From assembly GCA_017461425.1 (NCBI GenBank), contig JAFTXY010000010.1, positions 1-49,709 on the forward strand: DNA of 49,709 nt, read 5' to 3'. The notes under the pieces were generated by a model. It searched no databases, was not told where the DNA came from, and saw nothing but the letters and a program-made list of their open reading frames with translations. Of this stretch, positions 6,223-25,440 are shown one piece after another; positions within the stretch are counted from its first letter, which is position 1, and each line of letters begins with the position of its first letter. A program made the translations under genes and the position numbers. The stretch comes from Candidatus Gastranaerophilales bacterium. GTDB lineage: Bacteria; Cyanobacteriota; Vampirovibrionia; Gastranaerophilales; Gastranaerophilaceae.

Positions 6223-6251
6223 TTGCTATTTTTTTATTTTTATTTTATAAT
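6223..6251 (+). promoter_or_regulatory. Candidate sigma70-type promoter for tRNA-His (-35 ttgcta, 17-nt spacer, -10 tataat).
   Basis: Hexamers read directly at 6223-6228 and 6246-6251, ~28 nt upstream of the tRNA 5' end. Confidence 0.35.
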
Positions 6252-6279
6252 AACAAGGCGCAAGCTGTAAGCAAATTAT

Positions 6280-6356
6280 GGCGCCTGTCGTCAAGTGGTC
6301 AAGACCTCGGATTGTGGTTCCGATATGCATGGGTTCGAATCCCATCAGGCGCCCCA
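6280..6356 (+). tRNA. tRNA-His (anticodon GTG) with encoded G-1 and 3' CCA.
   Basis: Cloverleaf folds by hand: acceptor GCGCCTG/CAGGCGC, G-1 paired to C73, anticodon arm TCGGA-TTGTGGT-TCCGA, T-arm ATGGG-TTCGAAT-CCCAT. The 3' half nearly matches E. coli tRNA-His. Confidence 0.92.
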
Positions 6357-6473: not shown

Positions 6474-6561
6474 CATCAGGCGCCCCATATATCAAAATCA
6501 ACTCCCCTATTGGGAGTTTTTTTGTTGGTCGCCCTCAGGAACAATCGCTCCGCTTTTGCCC
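6474..6561 (+). repeat. att-like repeat copy B: duplicated tRNA-His 3' end (catcaggcgcccca) + segment D' with SNPs (ctcaggaacaatcgc).
   Basis: About 97% identical to 6343-6430. Diverges into unique DNA at 6562. Confidence 0.8.
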
Positions 6562-6589
6562 TTATACATTGTCTTGCAGGTTGAGAATT

Positions 6590-6657
6590 TCCGACTTCAA
6601 AACGAGAATTTAACTCTCGAAATGAGAATTTTGGACAACTAGTTTTGAAATGTCGGA
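6590..6657. promoter_or_regulatory. Imperfect inverted repeat (tccgacttcaaaac ... gttttgaaatgtcgga) with three gagaattt direct repeats. Candidate recombinase-binding (res/att-like) site next to the resolvase gene.
   Basis: Arms at 6590-6603 and 6642-6657 are reverse complements with a 2-nt indel. Lies between the att copy and the serine recombinase gene. Confidence 0.3.
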
Positions 6658-6680
6658 CAGTTATTTTTGAAAACCTTTTT

Positions 6681-6694
6681 AGGAATAATTATTC
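6681..6694. promoter_or_regulatory. Perfect 14-bp palindrome ggaataattattcc upstream of the resolvase gene. Candidate operator/recombinase site.
   Basis: Perfect dyad symmetry. Shares the aataattatt core with the palindrome at 15587-15610. Confidence 0.3.
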
Positions 6695-6813
6695 CAATAA
6701 ATTTTCTCAAATTGGTTCCTATATTTTGGAGGAGTTCCTACAAAGAAAACATCTGTTAACAATAGTATGAATTTATACAAGAATAAGCAAAAATAAAGGT
6801 TTTTATCGAAACT

Positions 6814-7410
6814 ATGGCAACAAAAGCGTTTTAAAGAGTATCGACAGTACTTCAAGATACTGAAAAGAATAAGATTGATATACTACAATTTGCAAACAGC
6901 AAAAAACTAGGCAATGTAGAATTTATCGAAGAACATTGTTCCGGTCGAATAAGCTACAAAGATAGAAAATTAGGGAAACTACTGGAGTCTATGTATAAAG
7001 GTGATATTTTGATAGTACCAGAGCTTTCAAGGATTGCTCGCTCTGTTACACAAATACTTGAAGTAATAAAGATTACTAAAGATAAGGGTATTACACTTTA
7101 TTCACTAAAGGAAAACTTCTCTAATGAAGAGGACTCAATTTCTGCCACTGTAACAAGTACGATTTTTGCTCTTGTTGCTCAAATTGAAAGAGAATTAATA
7201 AGCTTGCGTACTCGTGAAGCTTTGCAAGCTCGTAAAGCTCAAGGAGTAAAACTCGGTAGACCCCAAGGCAAAGGTAAATCAAAGCTTGATGCCCACAAAG
7301 ACGATATAATAAAGATGTTATCTTTTGGAGTCCCAAAGACTCTTATAGCTAGGCAGTACAATACATCTGTAGGGAATTTATATAATTTTCTTGAAAAATC
7401 AAAATCCTAA
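6814..7410 (+). pseudogene. Small serine recombinase (resolvase/invertase family) disrupted by an in-frame TAA at codon 7 (6832-6834), just before the catalytic RVST serine motif.
   Basis: Reading frame MATKAF*RVSTVLQDTEKNKIDILQF...EEHCSGRISYKDRKLGKLLESMYKGDILIVPELSRIARS... continues into ORF 6991..7410, which carries the resolvase C-terminal HTH (PKTLIARQYNTSVGNLYNFL). Re-initiation at M57 would lack the catalytic serine. Confidence 0.75.
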
Positions 7411-7432
7411 AGACCTATGAAGTTAGGTCTTC
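7409..7432. terminator. Bidirectional hairpin (agaccta-tgaagt-taggtct) between the convergent resolvase and nuclease genes.
   Basis: 7-bp perfect stem located between two converging stop codons. Confidence 0.4.
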
Positions 7433-7446
7433 ATGGAGAATGTAAT

Positions 7447-8625
7447 TTAAAAAGAAACAGGACAAGGATTTACTATGTAGCAAGCTCTTTCATATAATTC
7501 ATCATAGGTTATGATTTCTACATTTCTACAATCACGTCTGTATCGCTCAAAAGTATTCGACTTAATCTTATCATTTATATTACCATTAGGATTTGGAATT
7601 TCTTTGCTATAATTACCAATGATAAAAACAACTTTAGAGTCTTGTACGTCGGCTTGTATTATTCTACCATCACTAGTAACAAATTCTTTTGAAGAATAGT
7701 TTTCAATTAAATCCTGTTTTTGAGCTAAACATTGACTAATCCCATCTATAAAATCAGAACTGAAAGACCATGTATTTGTTCTTGCAGTGCTTCTTCTAGC
7801 ATTAGTAAATATTGGAGTAGTATGCTTTTTTAACTCTACTAGAGTAGTATATTTATCGATGCAAACAAAATCACTTATAGGAGAGCCATGTCCACTTGTA
7901 TCAGGAGTTCCAATGTTAGCTTGAGGAATAATATCTCTTTGAAAAAATAATCTTAATGATATACCTGCAAATATCCAAGTATTAGTTTCAAAAAAAGCTT
8001 GCCAATCGTCTTCTGAAGTGTCGTCATCTTCGAGCAATGCTTTGAATGTTTCTAAAGATTTTTCTTTTGAAGTATCTAACAATCTTTCTAATTGTTGATA
8101 TGACAAATCTTTATCTTGTATAAATTCTTGTATTGTTTGTAGTTGTTCATCCACCTCGAAGCTATTAAACGTATCAATTAATTGGTCTTTACTAATAACT
8201 TTGTACTTGTTTTCAAACTCTCCCAGTTCAATTAAGTCATTAAATCCTTGAATAAAAGAAATCATTTCCCAAAATTTTGAAGCAATATCCCCCTCTTTAA
8301 GTGATATATTTACCTTTTCTTTTGAACCATCTTGGACTTGAGAGGTTACGTCTGCTTTTAGCTTATAAAAAGTAGGACGAGCAATAAATTTATTAGACTC
8401 TCTATTCTTATAAAAAGTCCAACTGCAAAAAGTATTGACTCTAGGATTGTTTGAGAGTTTAAACTCGGTAACAATAGACATTTTATCGTCTCTTTTGTTA
8501 ATATAACAGTGGTTACCGTCATTCGCCAAGCTTATCTCAATATCTCCCCAACTATCGCTATTTGTATCAAAGGATATTTTTTCAAAACCAGTAACAATAT
8601 CTTCCCAATTAATTAGCATTAACAT
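7447..8625 (-). CDS. DUF4263/Shedu-like putative PD-(D/E)xK nuclease, last gene of the defence operon (~392 aa).
   Basis: C-terminal motif GSPISDFVCIDKYTTLVELKK fits PD...ExK. The track start at 8634 is a TTG. An ATG at 8625 with a GAGG RBS is the more likely start, overlapping the upstream gene by 17 nt. Confidence 0.45.
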   Translation of the reverse strand: MLMLINWEDIVTGFEKISFDTNSDSWGDIEISLANDGNHCYINKRDDKMSIVTEFKLSNNPRVNTFCSWTFYKNRESNKFIARPTFYKLKADVTSQVQDGSKEKVNISLKEGDIASKFWEMISFIQGFNDLIELGEFENKYKVISKDQLIDTFNSFEVDEQLQTIQEFIQDKDLSYQQLERLLDTSKEKSLETFKALLEDDDTSEDDWQAFFETNTWIFAGISLRLFFQRDIIPQANIGTPDTSGHGSPISDFVCIDKYTTLVELKKHTTPIFTNARRSTARTNTWSFSSDFIDGISQCLAQKQDLIENYSSKEFVTSDGRIIQADVQDSKVVFIIGNYSKEIPNPNGNINDKIKSNTFERYRRDCRNVEIITYDELYERACYIVNPCPVSF

Positions 8626-11600
8626 TATCCTCAAAGTTTAATTTAGGTAAGCTTTTGACGATTTTTACTGTCGCTACAGACAATGAAATTACACTCAGGA
8701 GCAGGTCAAGTATGTATCTCGGTTTTCCGTGTTCTTCTGCCCAGTCATTCGGGTCATTCTTAATTTGACTGTCTTTGTTTATAGTTACTTGATAACGATC
8801 CATTACCCATTCAATAGCACTCTTACCATTTACCACATAGTCATAAGCAACTTCAGGTATATTTGTTATTCTGATATACGGATTATAAATAATTTCAGAC
8901 TTGTCTTCCTTACTTTTGAATCGCATTTTATCAACAGTAAATATTCCGCTTTCTTCTCCAATTACTTTTACTGTTGCAAGAGGAGCTTGGTCTTCATAGT
9001 TTAGATGTAATTTTGCCAAATCTCTGCCTGCATTAGAGAATGCCCAAAAATCTTCTACTTTATCAACCAATGGAATTCTTGGAAGCATTTTCTTTAAATC
9101 GGCAGCAAACTTGGTTCGATAATCTTCACTATGCAAGATGCCGTAAACATAATAGAAAATATCTTCTTTTGTTACCTTATGACCATATTTTTCTTTAGCA
9201 AGATTATGTATGAAGTCTGTTATACCGTCATGACGAATATATTTATCATTGTCTTCTTCTTGGTTTCCGAATAAAGATTGTTGTTGTGAGTTCTTCTTCT
9301 CATTTTCTTCATACCAATATAGAGGAAAACTCTGTGATTTTTCTATCATATCTAAACAAGGAATACTATTAACTATTAATGAAGAAAAATCCTTATTAGA
9401 CCCTGTTCCTGAAATGGAAATACAAATATTCTCATGCTTATTTGTTGGGAATATTTTGGGTAATTGATAAAGCATTTCATTAAAAGAATTATCTATATAA
9501 CCATTTTGTTTCACAAAGGGTCTATAAATACCTTCATATATTTTGTCAGGGTTAAATCGGCATTCTTTATTCAATTTTAGGCTATTTTTTAATGCTCTTG
9601 ACCAACTGATTTTTGTACTATCAGTATTTATAAATTCTTCAACTTCAATTTCTCTATTGTTTAAATAATCAATTCTTTGCGAATTATAGAAATTTATAGT
9701 ATTTTGCATGTTAATTATTAATTGTTCTTTTGAAGAATTGTAACACCAAGCATCACGACTAGTTACAACACCCCCCGAATATATAGAGAAAAATTTATTT
9801 TTATTTGTAGCATCTTTATCACCTATTGTCGGATATGTTCCAAATAAATCACTTCTCTGATTTAACCAATCATTGTGTTCATTTGGTTTAAGCATTGTTG
9901 GTTCAAATTTTGGCGATAATACAGAACCAACATTTTTAACTATATCAAGTTTTTCTTCTCTTGATAAATAATCACCTATATCATGGTAATATATTGTTAC
10001 TTTTTCTTTTTTGTCATTAGGATTCTTTACAAGTAAAGTTATTGATATAGGTGTTCTGCTACCCTCACCAAAGACATTACCTTTTTCTTTCCTTCTTTGT
10101 TCTCCTGATGTTCTTGCATTACCTCTTAAATTATATACATAAACAGAAGAAAATTCAGTCTCTAAACAATGTCGGAAGCCATCCATACCATTTGAATCCA
10201 ACCAACTACCATTAGATACATAGCAAATAATTCCGCCATTTGAATTTAACCTATCAGATGCCCATCTAAATGCTTTAATATAACTATCGTATAGTCCTTT
10301 ATTTAGAGTTGCATTAGAGTACCTAACATATGTTTCTGAAATCTTGGAATCTAATTTTTCATATTTTTGATTTTTTGCATTATCATTTTCTGACTTTTGA
10401 CCGATTGAATATGGTGGATTACCTACAATAACTGTAATAGGAGTCTCTTTTTGTTTTCGTACTCGTTTTACGTTACGAGGGAAGAATTCTGACGGTATCT
10501 TTTGTTGGTCTTCTTCTCCAAGTTGGAAAGTATCCGTTAAACATATACCCTCAAAGTTTTGGTATTCTCCTTCTTTAGCTCCGATTAAATCATGGTATGT
10601 GTTTTCAATGTTTATGGACGCTATATAATATGCTAACAGGACTATTTCGTTTGCATGAAGTTCCTCTTCATATTTACGTTTTAGGTCTTCTTTTTTAATA
10701 CGTCCTGACTGAAGTAGTCTTGTAATAAAAGTACCAGTACCCGTGAACGGGTCAAGGATATGCACATTTTTATCTGATATATCTCTGTTGAATTCTTTTT
10801 TCAGTACGTCAGCTACAGAGTTGATAATAAAATCAACAACTTCAACAGGAGTATAGACTATGCCCAGTTTCTCAACTACTTTAGGGAGTGCCGTTTTGAA
10901 GAATTTGTCATACAATTCAATAATGACTTTTTGCTTACCCTCAGCATTATCTATACCTTCGCAACGTTGTCTTACGTCAGCGTAGAATTTTTCTAAGGTT
11001 TCAGTTTCTTTATCAATAGCGTTTTCGTCAAGTATATCAAGAATTTTCTGCATAGCTATTGAAACAGAGTTATTACCGATAAAGGAATAATTTTCAAACA
11101 GAGCTTCAAATACAGGACGTGTGATAATATGCTGAGCTAACATTTCAATAGCTTCTTCCTGCATAATGTACGGGTTAATATTTGTATGCAGACCGTCCAT
11201 AAATTCTTTGAAATCGGCTTTGTATTTTTCGTCTGCTACAATACGGGTAATTCTATCCACGTGTCTTTGTGCAATCTGAGCTATATCTTTTGCCCACTGT
11301 TCCCAGTATTTACGGCTTCCGACTTTTTGAACCATACGGGCATATATTACACTTTGAAGTTCCCCAAATTGCATGGTCAGTTGTTTTACGACATTATCAG
11401 AGAGCTTCTCTTCAACACGTTCACGTTTATTTGTAGCAGAGTCTTTAGCTCCACCATCGTCTTCATGTCTAGGGACGCCACCGACAATAACAGTGCCATT
11501 GTCATTCGGGTTCTTTTTATTAAGGTCAATCTTATTTATCATAGCATTGAACCTGTCATCGTGTGCTCTAAGTGCGTTCAAGACAGTCCAAACAACTTTA

Positions 11601-13531
11601 AAGTTATCATTCTTATCAAGAGCTTCTTCGGGTTTAACATTTAAAGGTACTGCAACAGGAATGATAATGTATCCGTATTTTTTACCCTGAGCACGTCTCA
11701 TAACACGTCCTACGGATTGTACAACATCAACCTGTGAATTTCTTGCTGATAAAAACATAACTGCATCCAAAGATGGAACATCCACACCTTCAGAAAGACA
11801 GCGTACATTAGTAAGAATTCTACATTCTTTGCCATCTGTAGGTGCGTGTTTTAACCAAGAAAGTTTTTCATCTCTCATAGAAGCTCCCATCCCACCATCA
11901 ACGTGGTCTGCTTCTACGTTTACAACTTCATTACGTTCTTCTTCAGATAAGCTTTCATAGTAGCTTTCTGAGTGTGTATTAAAGATATTTTTAATTTTTT
12001 GAGATGCTTTAATATTAGGACAAAATGCTACTGCTGTGTGCATAGGGTTAGGGTCAGTTGCACTCAATAATTCAGCTTCATTTTCTTGTCCTGCATATTT
12101 AATCATGCGTTTTGATAAAGCATTTATACAACCTATAAGCTTTGTTGCATCATCTGTATTAATTTCATACTCAGGATTAGAAATTGCTTTTTGCAAGGTA
12201 TCAGGTACTTGGTCGTCAGTCAAAGTTAATACAAGTACTTTGTAATCAGATAACAGGTTATTTTGTACTGCTTCCCCAAATCCTATACGATAAATTTCTT
12301 CTCCATATAATCCTTCATCATCCATAGAACAGAGAATACAGTTATTATCTGTAGCTTTTTGTTTTGCATTATCATCGTATAACCTAGGGGTAGCCGTCAT
12401 ATATAAACGTTTTTTAGACTTAATTATCTGATTATCATGAACTTTAGTAAAAGCAGACTCTTCTTTATTACCTGCAAGAATAACACCTGTTGTACGGTGT
12501 GCTTCATCGCATATAATTAAGTCAAATTCTGCTTTATCTCCAAATTCAGATATAAGTTCTGCCTGAGCTTTAGCAATAACATCTATTGACTGATATGTAG
12601 AGAATACAACAGTCATTCCTTCTTTTTTAGTCGCCTGTATCCACTTGAATTGTTTAACAATGTTATGAACATTAGTTGATGCAGGAAGTGCTAAATCCGT
12701 TACTGAGGTTAGGTTATCATCAGTTTCATTCTTTGAAGTTTTCTTACTTGCTGTAGGGTCAGAACATATACAGATGGCATTTAACTTTTCTTCTGCTTCA
12801 GAATACCATTCATTAAGAGTTTGTCCTAAAAGTGCTATTGACGGTACTAAAAAAAGTATAAGTCCTTTTCCCCCTGTTTCATTTTCTGCAATTTTCAAAG
12901 AAGTATATGTCTTACCTGTACCGCAAGCCATAATGAGTTTACCTCTATTTTTTGTTTTAAAATATTCATGGGTATCATTTATAGCTTTGAGCTGATGTTT
13001 CATTGGAGTCTTCTTTTTAGCACGTGCTCCACTTCCTGATATTCCCTCATCAAGTTTATCCCAATCAACAGGAGACTCTTCAAGTTCTAATAAACTTAAT
13101 CTCGATACAGGTGGGTCTTGGTTTTTAATAGTATTTTCAGCTTCAGAGTTCCATTTATTAGTAGTTGAAATCCAAAGTCTATGAGTGAACTTTTGTTGAG
13201 TTCCGTTTTCATCAAAGAAAATTTTACTTGAAGTTGCAAGGAATGTATCTACATCGGGTTTTGTTATACGGTTATTTTCTTGAAAACATTTGCATTGAAC
13301 TGCCCAGTATTCATCTTTGTATGTTTTAACAACAATATCAATACCTATATCTTTTCCGCCAAAATCACTTCTATATGGAAATTCATTCCACAGCCAAACT
13401 TCTTTCAACTCTGAAGTATAACGAGGGTCTGTTTTTAGGTATGCTTGCATAAGTCTTTCAAAACGTGTACCTTTATCACGTTCAGAAAATGCTATCTTTC
13501 TATACTTTTCTAATATCTGTTCAAATCCCAT
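8609..13531 (-). CDS. Type ISP-like single-polypeptide restriction-modification enzyme, 1640 aa: N-terminal Mrr-like PD-(D/E)xK nuclease, SF2 DEAH translocase, gamma-class N6-adenine methyltransferase, C-terminal target-recognition domain.
   Basis: DIGIDIVV...YWAVQCK (Mrr-cat). Walker A MACGTGKTYT, DEAH box LIICDEAHR, motif III MTATP, motif VI QSVGRVMRR. MTase motif I ILDPFTGTGTF and motif IV VIVGNPPYS. Same domain order as LlaGI/LlaBIII. Confidence 0.8.
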   Translation of the reverse strand: MGFEQILEKYRKIAFSERDKGTRFERLMQAYLKTDPRYTSELKEVWLWNEFPYRSDFGGKDIGIDIVVKTYKDEYWAVQCKCFQENNRITKPDVDTFLATSSKIFFDENGTQQKFTHRLWISTTNKWNSEAENTIKNQDPPVSRLSLLELEESPVDWDKLDEGISGSGARAKKKTPMKHQLKAINDTHEYFKTKNRGKLIMACGTGKTYTSLKIAENETGGKGLILFLVPSIALLGQTLNEWYSEAEEKLNAICICSDPTASKKTSKNETDDNLTSVTDLALPASTNVHNIVKQFKWIQATKKEGMTVVFSTYQSIDVIAKAQAELISEFGDKAEFDLIICDEAHRTTGVILAGNKEESAFTKVHDNQIIKSKKRLYMTATPRLYDDNAKQKATDNNCILCSMDDEGLYGEEIYRIGFGEAVQNNLLSDYKVLVLTLTDDQVPDTLQKAISNPEYEINTDDATKLIGCINALSKRMIKYAGQENEAELLSATDPNPMHTAVAFCPNIKASQKIKNIFNTHSESYYESLSEEERNEVVNVEADHVDGGMGASMRDEKLSWLKHAPTDGKECRILTNVRCLSEGVDVPSLDAVMFLSARNSQVDVVQSVGRVMRRAQGKKYGYIIIPVAVPLNVKPEEALDKNDNFKVVWTVLNALRAHDDRFNAMINKIDLNKKNPNDNGTVIVGGVPRHEDDGGAKDSATNKRERVEEKLSDNVVKQLTMQFGELQSVIYARMVQKVGSRKYWEQWAKDIAQIAQRHVDRITRIVADEKYKADFKEFMDGLHTNINPYIMQEEAIEMLAQHIITRPVFEALFENYSFIGNNSVSIAMQKILDILDENAIDKETETLEKFYADVRQRCEGIDNAEGKQKVIIELYDKFFKTALPKVVEKLGIVYTPVEVVDFIINSVADVLKKEFNRDISDKNVHILDPFTGTGTFITRLLQSGRIKKEDLKRKYEEELHANEIVLLAYYIASINIENTYHDLIGAKEGEYQNFEGICLTDTFQLGEEDQQKIPSEFFPRNVKRVRKQKETPITVIVGNPPYSIGQKSENDNAKNQKYEKLDSKISETYVRYSNATLNKGLYDSYIKAFRWASDRLNSNGGIICYVSNGSWLDSNGMDGFRHCLETEFSSVYVYNLRGNARTSGEQRRKEKGNVFGEGSRTPISITLLVKNPNDKKEKVTIYYHDIGDYLSREEKLDIVKNVGSVLSPKFEPTMLKPNEHNDWLNQRSDLFGTYPTIGDKDATNKNKFFSIYSGGVVTSRDAWCYNSSKEQLIINMQNTINFYNSQRIDYLNNREIEVEEFINTDSTKISWSRALKNSLKLNKECRFNPDKIYEGIYRPFVKQNGYIDNSFNEMLYQLPKIFPTNKHENICISISGTGSNKDFSSLIVNSIPCLDMIEKSQSFPLYWYEENEKKNSQQQSLFGNQEEDNDKYIRHDGITDFIHNLAKEKYGHKVTKEDIFYYVYGILHSEDYRTKFAADLKKMLPRIPLVDKVEDFWAFSNAGRDLAKLHLNYEDQAPLATVKVIGEESGIFTVDKMRFKSKEDKSEIIYNPYIRITNIPEVAYDYVVNGKSAIEWVMDRYQVTINKDSQIKNDPNDWAEEHGKPRYILDLLLSVISLSVATVKIVKSLPKLNFEDNVNAN

Positions 13532-13536
13532 GTATA

Positions 13537-15000
13537 TTACCCCTCTTCAGTTTCCAGTTTCTTGTAAAATTCTACAACTTCTTTATTTGCTACAATTTTG
13601 TTATGGTCAAACCCTCTTATAATAAGTCCATCAAGAGTTCTCGTTCTACTCAATGCTACGTATGCTTGTCCGTAATCAAATATCCTATTGAAATTGACCA
13701 CCAATTTATCAAATGTCATCCCCTGAGACTTATGTATAGTTATACCATAAGCAAGACGTAAAGGGTATTGTGTCCGCTTAATCTTAGTACGTCCTTCTTT
13801 TATGTATTCAAATTCTACAGGAAGTAAATTTGCACGTACCCCATTATCAAACTGTATATCAATAGAACCACCTGTCAGCTGTTTAACTGTACCGCAACTT
13901 CCATTTGCTAATCCTTTTTTAACGTCAATATTCTTTAGAAGCATTACCCTACAACCTTCTTTAAGTTCTAGTTTTTCAGGAGCTTTACAGTCATCATTAA
14001 ACTTCTTTAATGCCATTAAATCATACTTATTAACATTCTTATTGGTTATGTCTTTAGTATTCAATACTGTTACAGATTGCTCTCCAACATCATTGTAAAT
14101 ATAAAGTTCATCTTTAGCTTCATAAGTATAAGGTCTTTCAGGTATCTCATTAAAACACTTATCATTATAGGCATCTGCATCAGCATTAGTTCCAAATATC
14201 TGAAGAATGTCTCTTGATGCTTCATATTCAGGCTCGACATCTCTTTTGTAAAATACTTTCAGGTCTTCAGCACTTGTTTTATCTATACGAACATTATTTA
14301 ATGCTTCTGAAAGTTCTTTCTCTGACTGACGTTTTACCTCTTTTAAAACAACAGGTTTTAAATTTAAGTCATTCCATGTCTGACTATTGAAGCAGAAGTC
14401 TTTTCCGTCTTCTTTCATGCGCACAGGAGGTAATTGAAAGAAATCACCAAATATGAGAACCTGAATACCACCAAAAGGTTTATCATTTTCTCGTATTGCT
14501 TTTAGAACCTCATTAACATAATCAAAGGTAATATTATCTAACATAGATATTTCATCAATAGCAAGCATTTCACAACATAGTAAAGTTTTATACAATGTAG
14601 GTTTTCTACGTATTTTACTAACAACATCTTCGACTGGTTTCTCAGCAAGTCCTATTCCTGCCCAAGAATGAAGAGTCTGTCCATTAACATTAATAGCAGA
14701 TATTCCAGTCGTACTTGTTATATGTAGCTTCTTATCATACTTTTCTTTAAGCTTATTTAGGGTATACGACTTCCCAACTCCAGCACCACCTGTAATGAAG
14801 ACATTATACCCACTATCTATAAGTGAAAGGATTTTTTTTATATTAACATCCTTAGGTTCTTCTATAGGTGTATTTATGTTGTTATCTATTCTATTTTTAT
14901 TACGAAGCCATGAGAACATAGTCTTATTATAGTATAAGAAAGCATCTTCTGTAACTTTGTTAAGTTTTATATTCGCTCTTATAATAGCAGGCAAATACAT
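13537..15000 (-). CDS. PIF1/RecD-like SF1 DNA helicase (AAA_30 + UvrD_C-like), 487 aa. First gene of the operon.
   Basis: Walker A ITGGAGVGKS. Motifs LAIDEISM, GDFFQLPPV, AYGITIHKSQGMTFDKL, YVALSRTRTLDGL. Its stop is 5 nt from the next start, and the RBS of the next gene overlaps its stop. Confidence 0.75.
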   Translation of the reverse strand: MYLPAIIRANIKLNKVTEDAFLYYNKTMFSWLRNKNRIDNNINTPIEEPKDVNIKKILSLIDSGYNVFITGGAGVGKSYTLNKLKEKYDKKLHITSTTGISAINVNGQTLHSWAGIGLAEKPVEDVVSKIRRKPTLYKTLLCCEMLAIDEISMLDNITFDYVNEVLKAIRENDKPFGGIQVLIFGDFFQLPPVRMKEDGKDFCFNSQTWNDLNLKPVVLKEVKRQSEKELSEALNNVRIDKTSAEDLKVFYKRDVEPEYEASRDILQIFGTNADADAYNDKCFNEIPERPYTYEAKDELYIYNDVGEQSVTVLNTKDITNKNVNKYDLMALKKFNDDCKAPEKLELKEGCRVMLLKNIDVKKGLANGSCGTVKQLTGGSIDIQFDNGVRANLLPVEFEYIKEGRTKIKRTQYPLRLAYGITIHKSQGMTFDKLVVNFNRIFDYGQAYVALSRTRTLDGLIIRGFDHNKIVANKEVVEFYKKLETEEG

Positions 15001-15428
15001 TTTGAATGCATATCAACAACAACACATACTATCAGTATGTAGTTCGTCGCAGGCTCCTCACTCCATATTTTAAGTACTTGTCTTTGCAGAGACACACTCT
15101 TAATTTCTTTATCTTCTCCTATTATTTTCGCTTTAAAAATTTTTACTTTTTATGATAATTATTTTTATATAAATCTCTATATAAACAGACTAAACAACAA
15201 TAGCAATAGAGTTTTGACATTTATTAATACAACAAAAAATATTAAAATTTATATAGCAATAGATATTAAGAGACACATTCAAGACCAAGTATTCTCCTAA
15301 TATTATAATAGGTTTGCATACTACGTTTGATAATAACAACTAGATTTTTATAGGTAAATCTACCTTTATCAGGTAATTCTATTGGCATTTTGTCTTCCCC
15401 TAAAGGTTCTAAAATCATCCAATCTCCA

Positions 15429-15564
15429 GCCCCATATATCAAAATCAACTCCCCTATTGGGAGTTTTTTGTTGGTCGCCCTCGGGAGCAACCGCTCCGCT
15501 TTTGCCCTCTTGAAAAATGCTCAATGGTTCGCATTTTTCTGCGGCAGAGTCATCAGGCGCCCCA
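15429..15564 (+). repeat. att-like repeat copy C: partial tRNA-His 3' end + D (T6 variant, aaccgctcc SNP) + S + tRNA 3' end (catcaggcgcccca).
   Basis: Near-identical to 6351-6487. Marks the boundary between island 1 and island 2. Confidence 0.8.
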
Positions 15565-15586
15565 TTACAATAAAAATTACAATAAG

Positions 15587-15610
15587 AGTTGCAATAATTA
15601 TTGCAACTCT
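15587..15610. promoter_or_regulatory. Perfect 24-bp palindrome gagttgcaataattattgcaactc between att copy C and the 675-aa gene. Candidate operator/recombination site.
   Basis: Perfect dyad. Preceded by tacaataa direct repeats. Confidence 0.3.
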
Positions 15611-15644
15611 TTTGTGTTATTATTAGGCAAAAGGAGTCTTTTTT

Positions 15645-17672
15645 ATGAGTGAAAACATGGTGTCTGCAATAATAGTTGTAATAGTAATTGGGGTAATTTT
15701 GTATCAAGTCTTTTCTTCAAAACAAAAAGAAGAATCTACACCAAAGAATGTTGTTTCAGATAAATTACAAGCATTGTTTGATATGTCACCAAACGATTTT
15801 GCAACTAAAATTTTAGCATCAAAAATTGGTGATTTTTCATCACCCATAACAAAACACCTAAACCTGCCTGAAAGTACTGTAAAAGAGGTTATACATTCTG
15901 CACCTAAATATATGTTTGAATTTAGTATGCTAATTTTATATTTTGCATATGCAGTTTCAAAATCTCGTAACAAAGAAATATCTTATAGTAACTTACTAAA
16001 CTTTGCTACAAAATCTGCTATTTCAGGTATGGGAATGCTTGCATTTGGAATAGACAAAAGAATCTATGATAACTTTGAACCCGTGTTTAAAAATCGTATG
16101 GAATTGTATAACAATAAATCAAATTCTCAAATTAAAAATATTTTATGCAATCTATGCTTTGAAGAAATAAAAGAGGGCAAACCTGTAATTAAAAAAGAAG
16201 TAACTGATAATACAATTAGTGGTATGCCTTTATTTATAGACCATTTGAACAATGTTTTTGCAGGGAATGAATTGTATGTTTTTTCTGAATTAGTATTTAT
16301 GTATATAGACCATAACAGAAAATTATTCGAAACATCAGAAGAAGATACTTCTAACGAATCAGAACACATAGAAACACTAATGTATGATATCGATAGACCT
16401 GAACCTTCGCAGTTCTTTGTAGATACAAGGAAATTAGTAGGAAATTGGTTACAGCAAAGAATGAATCAAATAGATGGAACTCGTTGGATAAAAGGTTATT
16501 TGACTTATCCTGCATTTGAACACCTATCTTTTTCCTATAAAAATCAAATATTTTGTGTAGTTGTAGATATTATTGATGAAAATACAAAAGAATCTTGTTT
16601 GCCTGAAGAAACTAAAAGTTTGCTAATCAATGAATGTAAAAAAAATAATTTAATTCCATGTTTATACAAAGTTTTAGTCGATAATCCTAAAAATCCTGCA
16701 TACAATACACTCAAACAATATAGCGATGGTTGGAATTTATTTGATGCAAGAACAAATGAACCGGTTATTCCTGAAAGGTTAGGAACAGACGATTTTGTAG
16801 AAATGTCTGAATGGGAATTAAACGATTTTGCTATTCAAATTGTAAGAGATTACATAACAGATAATCTAAAATTAAAAATTCTATCCTATCAAAATATTGT
16901 GGGTGTTGACCCACAACTTTGGTTTATGGATGACAATCGTAAAAAAAACTATGTAATTGTAAGGTACACTATGTATCCTAATAAAGATGTTAAAATGCCA
17001 AATAACATTTCAGGTATTCAAAATAAATGTAAAGGTTATGATGGTTTTTTTGCAAGTGTTGCATTTTGCTCAAAAGGAGAAAATCCTTCAATGTTATATA
17101 GAGGTCAAGAATCTTATATTTCCTTTGACGGTTTAAAGAAATTAGAACCTTTAAAAGAAATTCCAACATTACCATTAGAAGAATTTGCATTAAAAATTTC
17201 TGCAAAAGTTGCAAATACTTTTATAAAATTTAATTTAAAAAATTTAACCGAAGATGAAAGATTAGATTATTTATATATGTATTCAACTGAATTGTTACTC
17301 TGCATATACTCTAATTTAATAGTTGAAAGAAATACAAGTGCAAATGAAAATAATTTATTCCCGATATTTTTAGCATATTTAGAAAAAATGACACCCCCTA
17401 ATCATAGAAATTTAATTGATTGGACAAATGTTGTTATGAGTAGATGCAAAATTTATCGGCAAATGGTGAACTTGGATAAAGATACCTATAGTTTATATTT
17501 TACTAAACTTTGTCAGCACGAAATTATTAATGGAACTATCTATACATATGAATCAATAGAAAATATACCGACAACTTCGTATGATAGCAAGTTGAACCGT
17601 TTCTATGAGGAAATTACAAAGACAAATATAATTTATGATATAAAAAATAAACTAAAAAGTTATTTATCGTAA
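15645..17672 (+). CDS. Hypothetical membrane-anchored protein (N-terminal TM helix, 675 aa). Sole cargo of the island bounded by att copies C and D.
   Basis: AGGAG RBS. Hydrophobic segment AIIVVIVIGVILYQVF at the N-terminus. No recognised catalytic motif. Confidence 0.6.
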   Translation: MSENMVSAIIVVIVIGVILYQVFSSKQKEESTPKNVVSDKLQALFDMSPNDFATKILASKIGDFSSPITKHLNLPESTVKEVIHSAPKYMFEFSMLILYFAYAVSKSRNKEISYSNLLNFATKSAISGMGMLAFGIDKRIYDNFEPVFKNRMELYNNKSNSQIKNILCNLCFEEIKEGKPVIKKEVTDNTISGMPLFIDHLNNVFAGNELYVFSELVFMYIDHNRKLFETSEEDTSNESEHIETLMYDIDRPEPSQFFVDTRKLVGNWLQQRMNQIDGTRWIKGYLTYPAFEHLSFSYKNQIFCVVVDIIDENTKESCLPEETKSLLINECKKNNLIPCLYKVLVDNPKNPAYNTLKQYSDGWNLFDARTNEPVIPERLGTDDFVEMSEWELNDFAIQIVRDYITDNLKLKILSYQNIVGVDPQLWFMDDNRKKNYVIVRYTMYPNKDVKMPNNISGIQNKCKGYDGFFASVAFCSKGENPSMLYRGQESYISFDGLKKLEPLKEIPTLPLEEFALKISAKVANTFIKFNLKNLTEDERLDYLYMYSTELLLCIYSNLIVERNTSANENNLFPIFLAYLEKMTPPNHRNLIDWTNVVMSRCKIYRQMVNLDKDTYSLYFTKLCQHEIINGTIYTYESIENIPTTSYDSKLNRFYEEITKTNIIYDIKNKLKSYLS

Positions 17673-17945
17673 AATCACTTTTGAAAAACTTTGCAGATAA
17701 AAAATCAAAGTGAATATTAGAAATTTTTCAAATTTAAGCACACCACTTCTCTATGTTAGATATAACCTCTGTTTCATGTAAACACAATTGAGTAAATTCG
17801 GCATAATTGGGTTTGCGTCTTGTCCCATTACTCGCTCCATTAAATAGACTCCTTTAGAGAGTCTATTTTAGTATGGGAATCGAACCGTTGTTTTCGCTTT
17901 GCTGCAACAATGGTTCTCCCCCTCAGAAAACGTGCCACCGGCACC

Positions 17946-18035
17946 TTTTCTGCGGCAGAGTCATCAGGCGCCCCATATATCAAAATCAACTCCCCTATTG
18001 GGAGTTTTTTGTTGGTCGCCCTCGGGAGCAATCGC
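17946..18035 (+). repeat. att-like repeat copy D: partial S + tRNA-His 3' end + 60 nt of D (T6 variant).
   Basis: Identical to the corresponding parts of copies A and C. Diverges at 18036. Confidence 0.8.
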
Positions 18036-18044: not shown

Positions 18045-19187
18045 TTAATCCAAAAGTGACGAAACGAGCTCTTTTGCGTAAAGCTCAGATTCTTTATCAA
18101 AACTACTCATTTTAGTAATTTTATCGCTTGGAATTTTACCTACAATTTCAATATCAGATGGTTTTATTGAATCTGTATAAAAATACTCTAATGGTTTATC
18201 ATTATACTCATCTAATTTGTCCAATCCTATGCCTTCTTGAATTCGCTGTAGATAATCAGAAAGAAAAATGTTCATAACAATATTTTCGGCGCCTAAGTTA
18301 TCATTTGGCGCAATTTTATTATCAATAAGATAATCTTCTAATAAAGTGTAATCATCGCTATCTTGTTCTGATAATAATCGATATTGAGGAAAAGGATTTA
18401 AAATATCTTCCTGATTTCTAACTTTAATTTTATCTAAATTAAGATTTCTTGTAGGTACTTTTAATAAAACCAATCCAGCATTTTCATCAGAATGAAATGC
18501 GCAATGATGCAATAATTTAACCAACAAAGATTTTTCTATGCTTGAGTTTTGTTTATTTGTTAAATTTGCCCAATTATGCAGCAAATCACTTTCAGAAACA
18601 AAAAAGCAGGCTTTTTCACCGTCTTCAATTAATCGTTTGTCAAAAGACATATTTAATCCATTTTTTAGAATGCCTGCAAGATTATCTGCATGAGTTATAT
18701 GATATAAATATTCAGGCAATTTTTTTGCATCTTGCTGAGCAATTTCAGGGGTAACAAATGCTGTTTTAGAAACTACTTCATCAGATGAAAACTCAATTCT
18801 TTTCCTTATTGAACCATCTTTATTGAAAGTCTTTTTAATTGCATTGCCATTTGGTTGTCTATCAAGAGTATATAGCTTCACTCCATCTTTTGAATAAACA
18901 GTATCAATTATTGAACCGTATGGAGTATTAACCTTTTGATATAACATAATACCATTAGTATTATATAATCGAAATTTGCCAGGAGTTGTTGTTGTATAAA
19001 ATCTTACTTCGCCTGCATTATTTTTAATTTCGGTTTTATAAACATTTTCCGTATTTATCAAGTCAGGCTGTTGGGATTGAAATGCTCTAATGCTTGCATC
19101 ATCAGTTCTCGAAGCTAATTTATCTGCCGATTTATGCAATTTTATTCTAGAAAAAAATTCTTTTGGATTAATACTTATAGTATGCAT
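18045..19187 (-). CDS. Fusion protein (380 aa): N-terminal MORN/YwqK-like repeats + DarT/Tpt1-like ADP-ribosyltransferase domain.
   Basis: EYLYHITHADNLAGILKNGL closely matches the DarT (DUF4433) signature YHITHIDNLKGIL and the Tpt1 motif LYHGT...IL..GL. The N-terminal G...Y..NG-type repeats (FYTTTTPGKFRLYNTNGIMLYQK...) resemble YwqK/MORN variants. ATG start with AAGGGGA RBS. Confidence 0.55.
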   Translation of the reverse strand: MHTISINPKEFFSRIKLHKSADKLASRTDDASIRAFQSQQPDLINTENVYKTEIKNNAGEVRFYTTTTPGKFRLYNTNGIMLYQKVNTPYGSIIDTVYSKDGVKLYTLDRQPNGNAIKKTFNKDGSIRKRIEFSSDEVVSKTAFVTPEIAQQDAKKLPEYLYHITHADNLAGILKNGLNMSFDKRLIEDGEKACFFVSESDLLHNWANLTNKQNSSIEKSLLVKLLHHCAFHSDENAGLVLLKVPTRNLNLDKIKVRNQEDILNPFPQYRLLSEQDSDDYTLLEDYLIDNKIAPNDNLGAENIVMNIFLSDYLQRIQEGIGLDKLDEYNDKPLEYFYTDSIKPSDIEIVGKIPSDKITKMSSFDKESELYAKELVSSLLD

Positions 19188-22345: not shown

Positions 22346-23863
22346 TTAAACACATTTATTGGATAAAATTAAAAAAATTAAATGTATAACAAAGAGAATT
22401 AAATATCCGCCAAGATAAAATATATATTTACAATCTAAGCACAAAGAAAAAATTCTCTCATTAATTAATCTTTTTAAAATATAACAAATTAAAGCAAAAA
22501 TAAAAAACAATATAACCGCATAAAAAATCACATCCAAAATATTGTAATCAGAATTTTTTGCTAAAAATTGCTTAATTTTATAAATAGCTCTAATATTTGT
22601 AAAAATTTGATAGACAATAAAAGAAGAACAGGTCGCAATCATGAGTTTTCTGGGAACAAATTTATATAAAAATGCAAAAAATAACATTAAACAACAAAAA
22701 CAATTCTGTGCATAAATAAAAGAGTTTAAAACTTCATAATAATATGAAGCAATTAGATAAAGAATGACATTTGGTAAAATTAAAGGCGCAAACCTTTTAA
22801 AAGAATCATCTTTAATTGCTTTAAAAAACCAAAAAAGAGGTAGTAGCGCAAATAAAATAAAAGGAATATAGCGCACTAGCTTTTGATTTTGATAAAATAT
22901 CCAATGTTTAGTTTTTATTTTTTCATGAGTTACAATGTGCCTAGAGTAAAATCGCCAGCTTGATTTTCCAGATTTCATAGCATACATAGGTTGTATAAGA
23001 GCGCCTTTTAATAAAAGATTAAACCTTTCTGAAGTTTTATATTTATTAAAATATTTAGCACCTGGATGTTCTTCTTTTTTTAAAATATGTTTAGCTATCG
23101 GGTTTGCAAAAGATTTAACATTATAAGTATTTGATTGAAGAGGCACTAAAATTAGCAAAAAAATTGAAAAAATTGTAAAAATTTTCAAAAAAGCAATAGC
23201 AATCAGCTTTAAATTATTTTTATATACAACGAACAAAAGATAAATTATTAAAATCAAAGAATACAGAGAATTAAAAAGATTTAAAGAAAAAACATAAACG
23301 GAAAGCAGTGCAATAACTACAATTTGCGTATTTTTAAGTTCTTTAATATTATCATCAAGAACCAAACTAATTATATAGTATATAAATAAAGATTGTACTA
23401 AACCAACATATATATATGTTTCTGGAATAGCCGCAAGAATTAAAATAGTATAACTAAAACCAACTATCAAAGTAAAAAATGAAATCAAAGCTTTATTATC
23501 ATAAAATATTTTTTTCAAAATACTGTTAAATATGCAAACAATTCCGCTAGCGCAAAGCGATTGAATAACAATTAAAGATAACGAAGAAGAGCTTAAAATT
23601 GCTTTAAAAAAAGAAACAAGTAGTGACGTAATTGATGATATAGGATGAACAACTGTATGAAATGCTGCAGGATTTTTATACATATATAAAAAACGATAGC
23701 CAGTATCAAAGTTATATATTAAATCAAGCTCCACATCAAGCACTAATGGATTAAAATTAACCAAATACAAGCCAACAAGCAAATATATGAAAAAAAATAT
23801 TAAAAATAAACTACAAGAGAGAGGGAGGGATTGGAATTTTCTTAAACATTCAATTTTTTTCAT
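22346..23863 (-). CDS. Polytopic membrane protein, GT-C-like glycosyltransferase/polymerase candidate (505 aa), paralog A.
   Basis: About 12 hydrophobic segments. Acidic first-loop motif NFDTGYRF. Tandem paralog of 23923..25440. Confidence 0.5.
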   Translation of the reverse strand: MKKIECLRKFQSLPLSCSLFLIFFFIYLLVGLYLVNFNPLVLDVELDLIYNFDTGYRFLYMYKNPAAFHTVVHPISSITSLLVSFFKAILSSSSLSLIVIQSLCASGIVCIFNSILKKIFYDNKALISFFTLIVGFSYTILILAAIPETYIYVGLVQSLFIYYIISLVLDDNIKELKNTQIVVIALLSVYVFSLNLFNSLYSLILIIYLLFVVYKNNLKLIAIAFLKIFTIFSIFLLILVPLQSNTYNVKSFANPIAKHILKKEEHPGAKYFNKYKTSERFNLLLKGALIQPMYAMKSGKSSWRFYSRHIVTHEKIKTKHWIFYQNQKLVRYIPFILFALLPLFWFFKAIKDDSFKRFAPLILPNVILYLIASYYYEVLNSFIYAQNCFCCLMLFFAFLYKFVPRKLMIATCSSFIVYQIFTNIRAIYKIKQFLAKNSDYNILDVIFYAVILFFIFALICYILKRLINERIFSLCLDCKYIFYLGGYLILFVIHLIFLILSNKCV

Positions 23864-23922: not shown

Positions 23923-25440
23923 TCAAATACAATTTTTTGACATAATTAAAAACATCTGATAAAAAATAGAATAAATTATATATGCGCCAAATAAAATCAA
24001 ATATTTATTTGTCAAAGTTAGTTTTGAAAATTCTTTATTAAAAAATTTCTTGAAAATATAAAAAACAAACACACAAGCAAAAAAGATAGCAATTGAATAT
24101 AGAATAACATCAAATATATTATAAGAAGAATTTTTAGCTATAAACTGTTTTATTTTATAAATAGTGCTAAAATTTATAAACAATTGATAGGCTAAAAAAA
24201 CAGAACATGTTGTTATTAATATTTTTTTAGGTACAAATTTATACAAAAAAGCAAGAAATAGCATAAAACAGCAAAAACAATTTTGTGTATAGATAAAAGA
24301 ATAAACAACTCCGTAAAAATAAGAGCAAAGCGCATATACAAAAATATTTATACACAACAATGGAAAAGTTATTCTAAAAAACTCGTCTTTTTTATTTTTA
24401 AAAACCCAAAATAATGGCAAAATTAAAAAGAAAAGAAAAGGGAGATATCTTGTTACTTTTTGTTTTTCACTAAAATCCCATTTTTTTGTTTTAATTACAC
24501 CACTACCACCTCTAAGATAACATTTGGAAACTTTTTTAGTGGGTTCAGATTTCATTGAATATATAGATTGAATAAAAGCACCTTTAATTAAATAATTAAA
24601 TCTATCTATATTTTTTAATTTATTAAAATATTCTAAACAGCGATGTTCTTTGGTTCCTTTAATATGCTCTACAACAGGCGCAAAAGAAGATTTTATATTA
24701 TATGCTTTTGTTTGCAATGGGACCAATATTGCAACCATTAATGAAAAAATAGCAAATATTTTTAAAAAGATTTTAATTATAGATTTATAATCTTTTTTAT
24801 ATTTTGCAAACAAAAGGTACAAAACAAAAACCAAAGAAAACAAAATGTTAGCCAAATTTATTGCAAAACTAAAAAGCATTAAAATAGAAAGAACTAATGC
24901 ACTTCTTATATCTATTTCATTTTGATTTTTATCAAATAAAAGCTCAATAACATAATACAAAAATAAAATATGGATTAGACCAACAAATATGTAAACTTCA
25001 GGAATTGCAGAAGTAATTAAGACACAAAACGCAAAAGCAAAAAGCAAAGTAAATAATAAAATCAAAATTTTATTATCAGAAAAAAGCTTTCTTAAAATTT
25101 TATTAAACAAACAAACACTAAAACTAGCACAAATTGCCTGCAAAATATTTACACATAACGAAGAGCTAATGACAAAACCCTTTAATAAAGAGGTCAAAGG
25201 AATTAAAATTCCTAAGATAGGATGCGCATCAACTTCAGTTGGAATAAGCACCTTATACATATAATAAAATCTATCGCCATTATCAAAGTTAAAAACTAAA
25301 TTCCATCTCACTTGTTCAATTAAAGGATTGAATGAAACTAAATATATACCAATAAATAGATATATAAAAAAGAACATTAAAAATAAACTACAAGAGAAGG
25401 GGAAAGATTGGAATTTTCTTAAACATTCAATTTTTTTCAT
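23923..25440 (-). CDS. Polytopic membrane protein, GT-C-like glycosyltransferase/polymerase candidate (505 aa), paralog B.
   Basis: Same length and topology as paralog A. Loop motif NFDNGDRF. The first ~20 codons and 58 nt of 5' leader are nearly identical to paralog A. Confidence 0.5.
   Translation of the reverse strand: MKKIECLRKFQSFPFSCSLFLMFFFIYLFIGIYLVSFNPLIEQVRWNLVFNFDNGDRFYYMYKVLIPTEVDAHPILGILIPLTSLLKGFVISSSLCVNILQAICASFSVCLFNKILRKLFSDNKILILLFTLLFAFAFCVLITSAIPEVYIFVGLIHILFLYYVIELLFDKNQNEIDIRSALVLSILMLFSFAINLANILFSLVFVLYLLFAKYKKDYKSIIKIFLKIFAIFSLMVAILVPLQTKAYNIKSSFAPVVEHIKGTKEHRCLEYFNKLKNIDRFNYLIKGAFIQSIYSMKSEPTKKVSKCYLRGGSGVIKTKKWDFSEKQKVTRYLPFLFFLILPLFWVFKNKKDEFFRITFPLLCINIFVYALCSYFYGVVYSFIYTQNCFCCFMLFLAFLYKFVPKKILITTCSVFLAYQLFINFSTIYKIKQFIAKNSSYNIFDVILYSIAIFFACVFVFYIFKKFFNKEFSKLTLTNKYLILFGAYIIYSIFYQMFLIMSKNCI

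What the first reader, a model, noticed from the sequence alone, without database searches (positions are those of the whole stretch)
15565..17945. Single-gene island: 675-aa membrane-anchored protein with no recognisable domains, bounded by two att copies
The DNA between att copies C and D contains exactly one gene (15645..17672) with a strong RBS, one N-terminal TM helix and no motif I can assign. A perfect 24-bp palindrome (15587-15610) sits in its leader. Single large ORFs delivered as the sole cargo of tRNA-integrated mini-islands are typical of abortive-infection or defence effectors, so this is a candidate novel single-protein system.
Basis: inference. Interest (0 to 1): 0.6.

Follow-up and report, generated by a model that had tools for sequence, protein, structure and literature searches.

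The report
Membrane-anchored nuclease-fold protein on mobile cassette
A real, conserved 675-residue gene of unknown family sits alone on a 2.4-kb cassette without its own integrase, next to a tRNA-His gene in an uncultured gut bacterium; its core has the fold of DNA- and RNA-cutting enzymes and it always lies among anti-phage genes, so it is a good but untested candidate for a new phage-defence protein.

Summary
One ORF (15645-17672, 675 aa) lies between two exact 31-nt repeats (15535-15565, 17946-17976) that end in the last 14 nt of tRNA-His. It has a GGAG ribosome-binding site and one N-terminal hydrophobic helix. The leader palindrome is 28 bp, not 24.

The host is a Candidatus Gastranaerophilales MAG. 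The gene is under purifying selection (dN/dS 0.11-0.20). It matches nothing in Pfam, NCBIfam, PADLOC, PHROGs or PDB sequences.

Full-length homologues occupy different loci, in at least five cases among known defence genes, with no conserved partner. A 98.4%-identical cassette follows another genome's own tRNA-His 3' end.

Best reading: an att-bounded cassette without an integrase, carrying a candidate single-protein defence effector. Function is untested. Interest is moderate.

The parts
6281..6356 (+). tRNA-His (GTG). Its last 14 nt, CATCAGGCGCCCCA, are the core of all the att-like repeats.
   Evidence: ARAGORN; Rfam tRNA model, 61.7 bits.
15429..15565 (+). Repeat unit copy C: terminator-like hairpin at 15447-15465, a spacer, then a copy of the tRNA 3' end. 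Its last 31 nt (15535-15565) form the left direct repeat of the cassette.
15565..15611 (+). Left end of the cassette. It carries three phased direct TTRCAATAA sites (15565, 15577, 15589) and one inverted site (15598-15606), and ends in a perfect 28-bp palindrome (15584-15611). This is a putative operator or recombinase/Xis arm-site cluster. On the + strand it also looks like a hairpin followed by a T-run.
   Evidence: The sequence is identical in L015.
15630..15636 (+). Shine-Dalgarno sequence AAAGGAG, 8 nt upstream of the ATG.
   Evidence: Read directly from the sequence.
15645..17672 (+). Protein-coding gene of 675 aa.
   Evidence: ORF. 18 homologues without frameshifts. dN/dS 0.11-0.20.
15657..15713 (+). 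N-terminal hydrophobic helix (aa 5-23), a putative membrane anchor.
   Evidence: Hydropathy 2.74. AlphaFold helix at 3-27. The segment is hydrophobic in the homologues.
15762..16349 (+). N-terminal all-alpha domain (aa 40-235). It is specific to this family and evolves faster than the core (71% mean pairwise identity).
16380..17150 (+). Core (aa 246-502): two tandem restriction-endonuclease-like (alpha-beta-beta-beta-alpha-beta) folds. E391 and R486 are invariant. This is the most conserved part of the protein (85-91% identity).
17157..17669 (+). C-terminal all-alpha domain (aa 505-675), specific to this family (77% identity).
17673..17887 (+). Non-coding 3' part of the cassette, conserved at 98% in L015. 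It contains an AT-rich inverted repeat (17680-17732) and a hairpin followed by a T-run (17846-17869).
   Evidence: The hairpin was read directly from the sequence.
17888..17945 (+). Right-end module, related to the spacer of the 131-nt units. It contains the hairpin 17932-17944 just before the repeat.
17946..18035 (+). Repeat unit copy D. The first 31 nt (17946-17976) form the right direct repeat. The unit then continues through its hairpin (17988-18006) and stops at 18035.

Best explanation
The 2.4-kb segment is an att-bounded gene cassette without an integrase. It is one of several modules stacked behind tRNA-His in a defence island of a Candidatus Gastranaerophilales genome, comparable to a cis-mobilizable element (CIME) or a decayed tRNA-integrated island.

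Its single gene encodes a membrane-tethered, probably cytoplasm-facing protein with this layout: N-terminal anchor helix, family-specific all-alpha domain, two tandem restriction-endonuclease-fold (Hjc/EndA-like) domains, second all-alpha domain.

The most likely role is a self-contained anti-phage or anti-mobile-element effector or sensor. In this model the conserved core binds or cuts nucleic acid (branched DNA, or RNA/tRNA) through a non-canonical site built around the invariant E391 and R486. The faster-evolving helical domains would provide triggering or specificity. The anchor would place the protein at the membrane, where phage DNA enters.

Shown: the gene is real; the repeats exist; the cassette is shared between two genomes; the fold is confident; the neighbourhoods are defence-rich.

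Inferred: the defence role, the action on nucleic acid, the membrane topology, and mobilisation by a recombinase acting in trans.
For: Gene reality: 18 homologues and dN/dS 0.11-0.20.

Cassette:
- Exact 31-nt direct repeats contain the tRNA-His 3' end.
- L015, from a different genome (different tRNA-His sequence, glnA upstream, otherwise not alignable), carries a 98.4%-identical 2339-bp copy. It starts at the same base, immediately after a second copy of that genome's own tRNA 3' end.
- In L009 a homologue is flanked by 48-nt repeats 2353 bp apart.
- No integrase lies between 6.3 and 18 kb. There is only a small serine recombinase ORF lacking its N-terminus; a frameshift was read from the sequence.

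Defence association of full-length homologues at independent loci:
- Window: Shedu, type ISP restriction-modification, Pif1-like helicase.
- L001: type II REase, methylase, PtuA-like/AbiJ ATPase, adjacent to tRNA-Ser.
- L002/3: GmrSD, HamA, methylases.
- L007/8: Hhe/PDC-S37, AbiH, DUF1016, a Tn7-like element.
- L009: AbiEii, Macro, PDC-S53.
- L012: WYL and a faint HNH hit, a few kb away.

The core domain alone sits inside BREX/Pgl loci (L031, L046), next to HsdR (L020), next to large helicase-nucleases (L019, L042) and on an integrative element (L058).

The helical domains evolve faster than the core. The core is rare in viral contigs: 3 of 2.9 million.
Against: - There is no experimental or sequence link to any validated defence family (PADLOC v2.0.0 of 2023 is negative). 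Newer catalogues could not be searched.
- The canonical PD-(D/E)xK catalytic residues are incomplete. In domain 1 D/E292 is 82% and D/E308 only 58% conserved, with no Lys at +2. Domain 2 has PQ in place of PD and VxR in place of (D/E)xK. The core may therefore be non-catalytic.
- Stand-alone core homologues also sit in housekeeping-looking loci: HlyD|core|BioG conserved in four genomes, and next to aconitase.
- In the 69%-identical branch the gene heads a tight operon (TPR, ion channel, DUF4236), so 'single-protein system' may not hold generally.
- In L009-L011 the anchor helix appears to be split off by a frameshift in an A-run, read from the sequence.
- No excised-circle junction was found in JGI metagenomes.
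Confidence: 0.5

Rival explanations
1. The protein is the cassette's own mobility or maintenance enzyme. On this view it is a Hjc/TnsA/homing-endonuclease-like nuclease that cuts or resolves at the TCATCA-containing tRNA 3'-end core, making the 2.4-kb unit a selfish single-gene element rather than a defence gene.
For: - The only gene between the repeats has Holliday-junction-resolvase-like folds.
- The same cassette sits at the tRNA-His 3' end in two different genomes.
- Locus-specific direct repeats with a similar TCATCAKG core flank a homologue in L009.
- No integrase is present in the island.
Against: - Cassette ends are not conserved between branches. The palindromic leader exists only in the window/L015 branch; the others have a different upstream region.
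- Most homologue loci show no flanking repeats.
- Hundreds of stand-alone core homologues are single genes without repeats in varied contexts.
- The catalytic motif is incomplete.
- No circle junction was found.
Confidence: 0.08
2. The gene is ordinary accessory cargo with a function unrelated to defence, for example a nucleic-acid-processing or repair factor, or an envelope-associated factor. On this view it merely accumulates in variable regions, and the defence neighbours are coincidental.
For: - Stand-alone core homologues are conserved between HlyD-like and BioG genes in four Gastranaerophilales genomes, and lie next to aconitase, SecA and YebC genes elsewhere.
- The fold is shared with repair and RNA-processing enzymes such as Hjc, RecU and EndA.
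- There is no hit in PADLOC.
Against: - Several independent full-length loci are known, at least five flanked by recognised defence genes, and none is shown to be a core-genome locus.
- The core is embedded in BREX/Pgl and next to HsdR in unrelated phyla.
- Distribution is patchy and a near-identical copy is shared between genomes.
Confidence: 0.25
3. The gene is an addiction or toxin-type or anti-defence gene of mobile elements. It would stabilise the island, or counter other systems, rather than protect against phage.
For: - It is carried on mobile contexts: a Tn7-like element (L007, L016), an integrative element with NikA/integrase (L058), and tRNA-linked islands.
- It stands alone with its own leader palindrome.
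Against: - No antitoxin-like small partner is conserved.
- The core is almost absent from phage genomes and plasmids.
- Strong purifying selection on a 675-aa multi-domain protein is atypical for simple toxins.
Confidence: 0.1

Closest known systems
Archaeal Holliday-junction resolvase Hjc and related minimal PD-(D/E)xK nucleases (RecU, VRR-NUC, YraN/UPF0102)
   Different: There is no sequence similarity (7-11% identity) and no Pfam Hjc hit. The E...D...ExK catalytic set is not conserved. The two folds are fused in tandem and embedded between a membrane anchor and two large helical domains.
tRNA-splicing endonuclease subunits (EndA, Sen2/Sen34/Sen15/Sen54)
   Different: No conserved Tyr-His-Lys triad can be identified. 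There is no sequence match, and the context is bacterial mobile elements.
Single-gene PD-(D/E)xK defence proteins in defence islands, for example Shedu SduA (DUF4263)
   Same: It is a stand-alone gene in defence islands, with a nuclease-fold core plus variable N-terminal parts. A Shedu gene lies 7 kb away in the same island.
   Different: There is no hit to SduA or any PADLOC model. The catalytic motif is degenerate, the nuclease folds are in tandem, and the protein has a membrane anchor.
Cis-mobilizable elements (CIMEs) and tandem accretion at tRNA att sites
   Same: The cassette is flanked by intact att-like direct repeats derived from a tRNA 3' end. It has no integration or transfer genes and is stacked in tandem with other modules. 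This matches the definition in PMC6323972.
   Different: It is very small (2.4 kb, one gene). No partner ICE or integrase is visible in the window. The repeats are part of a tandemly repeated 131-nt unit. Mobilisation has not been shown.
Accessory genes embedded in BREX/Pgl loci
   Same: Stand-alone core-domain genes lie between pglX and the PglY-like/pglZ genes (L031) and directly upstream of pglZ-brxL (L046).
   Different: They do not correspond to any named Brx or Pgl component. The window copy is not in a BREX locus.

Membership tests
PD-(D/E)xK / restriction-endonuclease-like fold superfamily | Core alpha-beta-beta-beta-alpha-beta fold | tested here: met
PD-(D/E)xK / restriction-endonuclease-like fold superfamily | Catalytic signature: an acidic residue at the start of strand 2 and (D/E)xK on strand 3 | tested here: not met
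   Based on 50 family members. In domain 1, D/E292 is 82% and D/E308 58% conserved, and position +2 is hydrophobic. Domain 2 has P423-Q424 and V-x-R/K440. Only E391 and R486 are invariant. A non-canonical site is possible but unproven.
Hjc Holliday-junction resolvase family | Sequence membership (Pfam Hjc) and the E/D/E/K active site | tested here: not met
   No Pfam hit at E <= 0.01 for the protein or for 50 relatives. Identity in the structural alignments is 7-11%.
tRNA-splicing endonuclease family | Conserved Tyr-His-Lys catalytic triad | tested here: inconclusive
Known anti-phage defence systems (PADLOC-DB v2.0.0) | Match to a model of a known or candidate defence protein | tested here: not met
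   There were 0 hits for the protein. Among 50 core-domain relatives there was one spurious hit. Catalogues newer than 2023 could not be searched.
Defence-island gene (guilt by association) | Recurrent placement among recognised defence genes at independent loci | tested here: met
   Five independent full-length loci have defence neighbours, and a sixth has WYL/HNH genes a few kb away. The core domain occurs in BREX and type I restriction-modification loci. The association was not quantified against a background, and the stand-alone members are mixed.
tRNA-integrated genomic island / CIME | Flanking direct repeats that contain the 3' end of the target tRNA | tested here: met
   The 31-nt exact repeats end in the last 14 nt of tRNA-His. 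In L015 the cassette follows a copy of that genome's own tRNA-His 3' end.
tRNA-integrated genomic island / CIME | Absence of its own integrase and transfer genes (CIME), or presence of an integrase (a classical island) | tested here: met
   The cassette holds one ORF with no recombinase domain. The nearest recombinase is a small serine recombinase ORF at 6991-7410 that lacks its N-terminus. This fits a CIME and fails the definition of a classical island.
tRNA-integrated genomic island / CIME | Excision or mobilisation by a recombinase acting at the att sites | not testable with these tools
   There is only indirect evidence: a near-identical cassette in a second genome. A search for the circle junction in JGI metagenomes was negative.
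Integron gene cassette | An adjacent integron integrase with attI, and an attC site at the cassette end | tested here: not met
   No tyrosine recombinase lies near the array. The conserved right-end module of about 130 nt was not tested for attC-like folding.
Membrane-anchored abortive-infection effectors | A transmembrane segment | tested here: met
   There is one N-terminal hydrophobic helix. The topology is inferred only.
Membrane-anchored abortive-infection effectors | Phage-triggered growth arrest or cell death | not testable with these tools
   This requires an experiment.

The most novel reading that the evidence does not exclude
The stack behind tRNA-His consists of empty 131-nt units, a 9-kb Shedu / type ISP / Pif1 module and the single-gene cassette. 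Each ends in the same right-end module of about 130 nt plus a copy of the tRNA 3' end. This stack could be an integron-like capture array for defence genes in Melainabacteria. Its cassettes would be moved between species by a recombinase acting in trans that recognises a TCATCA-type core, or, more radically, by the Hjc-like protein itself. The 675-aa protein would then also define a new, widespread defence domain with a non-canonical Glu/Arg active site.
Probability: 0.1. Interest if true: 0.8.

Novelty: new variant of a known kind. Interest (0 to 1): 0.5.

Why it matters
If the protein is a defence effector, it would add a new family to the anti-phage repertoire. The 255-residue core alone spans about 580 clusters at 50% identity in Cyanobacteriota/Melainabacteria, Verrucomicrobiota, Bacteroidota, Alphaproteobacteria, Negativicutes, Synergistota, Spirochaetota and Elusimicrobiota. 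None of these proteins has any annotation.

It would also explain genes embedded in some BREX/Pgl loci. It offers a compact, experimentally tractable single-gene candidate with two clear mutational targets, E391 and R486.

The att-bounded cassette without an integrase, shared at 98% identity between genomes with different tRNA-His sequences, is a clean example of how defence genes move in an uncultured gut lineage.

Tried and rejected
Sequence-level family assignment gave nothing:
- Pfam, NCBIfam, PADLOC and PHROGs on the protein.
- Pfam and PADLOC on 50 core-domain relatives.
- Profile searches against PDB sequences.
- tblastn against plasmids and phages.

The AlphaFold database was not available for Foldseek.

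A conserved partner gene was rejected. The large upstream neighbours in L002 and L012 are unrelated, and no family recurs next to the full-length gene.

Searches on the repeats and mobility signals:
- The att repeat is absent from the GTDB representative genomes.
- Neither the excised-circle junction nor the 28-bp palindrome was found in JGI metagenomes.
- The palindrome occurs only once in the window, so no regulon could be defined.
- Rfam finds no RNA family in the units or the leader.

A remnant of tRNA-Ser downstream of the gene, suggested by L001, is too weak to claim. A motif scan for the right-end module in other loci was too noisy in this AT-rich DNA.

A sigma-70 promoter for the gene could not be placed.
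Full report
**1. What is in the sequence**

The window is from a Candidatus Gastranaerophilales (Melainabacteria) MAG. The encoded protein is 100% identical to NCBI 'IJ003_03675', and a 520-kb ENA scaffold matches 22 kb of the window exactly.

The ORF at 15645-17672 (+) encodes 675 aa and is the only substantial ORF in 15565-17945. AAAGGAG lies 8 nt before the ATG.

tRNA-His lies at 6281-6356. Its last 14 nt, CATCAGGCGCCCCA, occur four times, against 0.02 expected: at 6343, 6474, 15551 and 17962.

The gene is bracketed by an exact 31-nt direct repeat at 15535-15565 and 17946-17976.

The repeats are part of a 131-nt unit: terminator-like hairpin, spacer, then a pseudo tRNA 3' end. This unit follows the tRNA in tandem (6357-6562) and recurs at 15429-15565 and 17946-18035. 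The last roughly 130 nt before repeat D are a diverged copy of the same unit.

The leader palindrome is 28 bp and perfect (15584-15611). It closes a run of four TTRCAATAA sites that starts at the first base of the cassette.

**2. The gene is real and the cassette is a discrete, exchanged unit**

Eighteen homologues were found, at 56-100% identity plus one distant relative. They align without frameshifts. dN/dS against five diverged homologues is 0.11-0.20.

L015 comes from another genome. Its tRNA-His has a different sequence, glnA lies upstream, and nothing else aligns to the window. It nevertheless carries a 2339-bp stretch 98.4% identical to window 15551-17887. The cassette begins at exactly the same base, immediately after a second copy of that genome's own tRNA-His 3' end, CATCATCCGCCCCA. 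That copy lies 149 nt downstream of the true tRNA. Its right end carries the same kind of module...CCTCTTGAAAAATG...TTTTTCTCAGCAGAGTCATCA, before the contig ends.

In L009 a homologue is flanked by 48-nt repeats 2353 bp apart. The neighbouring 9-kb defence module there has its own 108-nt repeats, mirroring the window.

In the window, the 9-kb module between units B and C carries Shedu SduA, a type ISP restriction-modification enzyme and a Pif1-like helicase. It also carries a small serine recombinase ORF (6991-7410) that lacks its N-terminus. Reading, the catalytic RVST motif sits upstream in another frame, which indicates a frameshift. Small serine recombinases are reported markers of defence loci (PMC13552941).

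No integrase is present.

This matches the definition of a cis-mobilizable element: att sites retained, integration and transfer genes lost (PMC6323972).

Excision itself is unproven. A circle-junction search in JGI metagenomes was negative. The 2440-bp Logan contig L014, bounded by the repeats, can be explained by assembly breaking at repeats.

**3. What the protein is**

No Pfam, NCBIfam, PADLOC or PHROG family matches, and no PDB sequence matches.

One hydrophobic helix covers aa 5-23.

A full-length AlphaFold model is moderate (pLDDT 66). It gives all-alpha domains at about 40-228 and 510-675.

An exhaustive HMMER search found 581 representative proteins. Nearly all match only residues 246-502, and most are stand-alone proteins of 250-290 aa.

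The canonical catalytic signature is not conserved:
- Domain 1 has D/E292 (82%) and D/E308 (58%), but a hydrophobic residue where the Lys should be.
- Domain 2 has P-Q instead of P-D and V-x-R/K instead of (D/E)-x-K.
- Only E391 (first helix of domain 2) and R486 are invariant in 50 sequences.

I therefore treat the core as an endonuclease-fold nucleic-acid-binding module. Catalysis, if any, is non-canonical. An invariant Glu/Arg pair would suit a metal-independent RNase of the EndA type, but this is inference.

The helical domains have no informative structural neighbours and are confined to this family. They evolve faster (71% and 77% mean identity) than the core (85-91%).

**4. Context evidence for function**

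Full-length homologues occupy different loci with no conserved partner.
- L001: next to a type II REase and methylase and a PtuA-like/AbiJ ATPase, 300 nt from tRNA-Ser.
- L002/3: between an unknown 785-aa protein and GmrSD, HamA and methylases.
- L007/8 and L016: with Hhe/PDC-S37, AbiH, DUF1016 and a Tn7-like module.
- L009: with AbiEii, Macro and PDC-S53.
- L012: WYL and a faint HNH hit a few kb away.

Stand-alone core genes lie in several defence or mobile settings:
- Between pglX and the PglY-like/pglZ genes (L031).
- Directly before pglZ-brxL (L046).
- Before HsdR (L020).
- Beside large helicase-nucleases (L019, L042).
- On an integrative element (L058).

They are almost absent from viral contigs, phage genomes and plasmids.

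Against a pure defence reading:
- Other stand-alone members sit in housekeeping-looking, syntenic loci: HlyD|core|BioG in four genomes, and next to aconitase, SecA and YebC.
- In the 69%-identical branch the gene heads a tight operon with a TPR protein, an ion-channel protein and DUF4236.

**5. Verdict**

The best explanation (confidence about 0.5) is an att-bounded, horizontally exchanged cassette without an integrase. Its single gene would be a membrane-tethered endonuclease-fold protein acting as an anti-phage or anti-mobile-element effector or sensor.

Rivals:
- Non-defence accessory function (0.25).
- Toxin, addiction or anti-defence gene (0.1).
- The cassette's own mobility enzyme (0.08).

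The family is unannotated and its architecture is unusual. The kind of thing, a nuclease-fold single-gene candidate in a defence island on a tRNA-linked element, is familiar. Hence 'new variant of a known kind' and moderate interest (0.5).

Noticed in passing
window 6563-15430: A 9-kb defence module lies between repeat units B and C. It carries Shedu SduA (7447-8634, -), a 1640-aa type ISP restriction-modification enzyme (8609-13531, -), a Pif1-like helicase (13537-15000, -) and a small serine recombinase. The recombinase appears frameshifted: the Pfam Resolvase hit covers 6991-7410, and the catalytic RVST motif sits upstream in another frame near 6838.
   Followed up: partly
window 6357-6562: Two tandem 'empty' copies of the 131-nt unit (hairpin, spacer, tRNA 3'-end copy) lie directly after tRNA-His. 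They look like scars of lost cassettes or spare attachment sites.
   Followed up: partly
window 18045-19187 (-): A 380-aa ORF abuts repeat copy D. It has no family assignment except a weak, sub-threshold match to the first 20 or so residues of DarT (PADLOC E 4e-4; Pfam E 0.009).
   Followed up: no
window 2050-5236 (-): Phage portal (2050-3684) and large terminase (3914-5236) genes lie on the 5' side of tRNA-His. In L015 glnA lies 5' of its tRNA-His instead. A prophage or phage-like element therefore borders the tRNA on the other side.
   Followed up: no
window 5955-5988 and 6067-6100: A 34-nt direct repeat (97% identical), ACCTCAATCAAGTGAGCTTAGCCAGACGTGGCTT, lies just upstream of tRNA-His, at the edge of the phage-like region.
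   Followed up: no
window 22346-23863 and 23923-25440 (-): Two tandem paralogous 505-aa genes (about 70-89% nucleotide identity in blocks, spacing 1577) have no Pfam match.
   Followed up: no
L054 268-6214 (also L055, L056, L017): In the 69%-identical branch, the homologue is the first gene of a tightly spaced operon: TPR protein (429 aa), a 110-aa protein, an Ion_trans channel (232 aa), DUF4236 (351 aa) and a zinc-ribbon protein. A DUF4236/zinc-ribbon gene also lies in the L007 island.
   Followed up: no
L009 9906-10030 (also L010, L011): Here the anchor-helix coding part is in a different frame from the rest of the gene, apparently through a frameshift in an A-run. This is seen in three assemblies and could be phase variation or loss of the anchor.
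   Followed up: no
L031 2722-15478; L046 8001-13524: Stand-alone core-domain genes are embedded in BREX/Pgl loci of Verrucomicrobiota. In L031 the order is PglX, three small genes including the core-domain gene, a DUF6079/PglY-like gene, then PglZ. In L046 the order is the core-domain gene, PglZ, then BrxL.
   Followed up: partly
L025-L028 about 5500-9420: In four Gastranaerophilales genomes a stand-alone core-domain gene sits in a conserved same-strand block: two unknown genes, an HlyD-like gene, the core-domain gene, then BioG. The block has syntenic flanks including prfA, so this copy behaves like a core-genome gene.
   Followed up: partly
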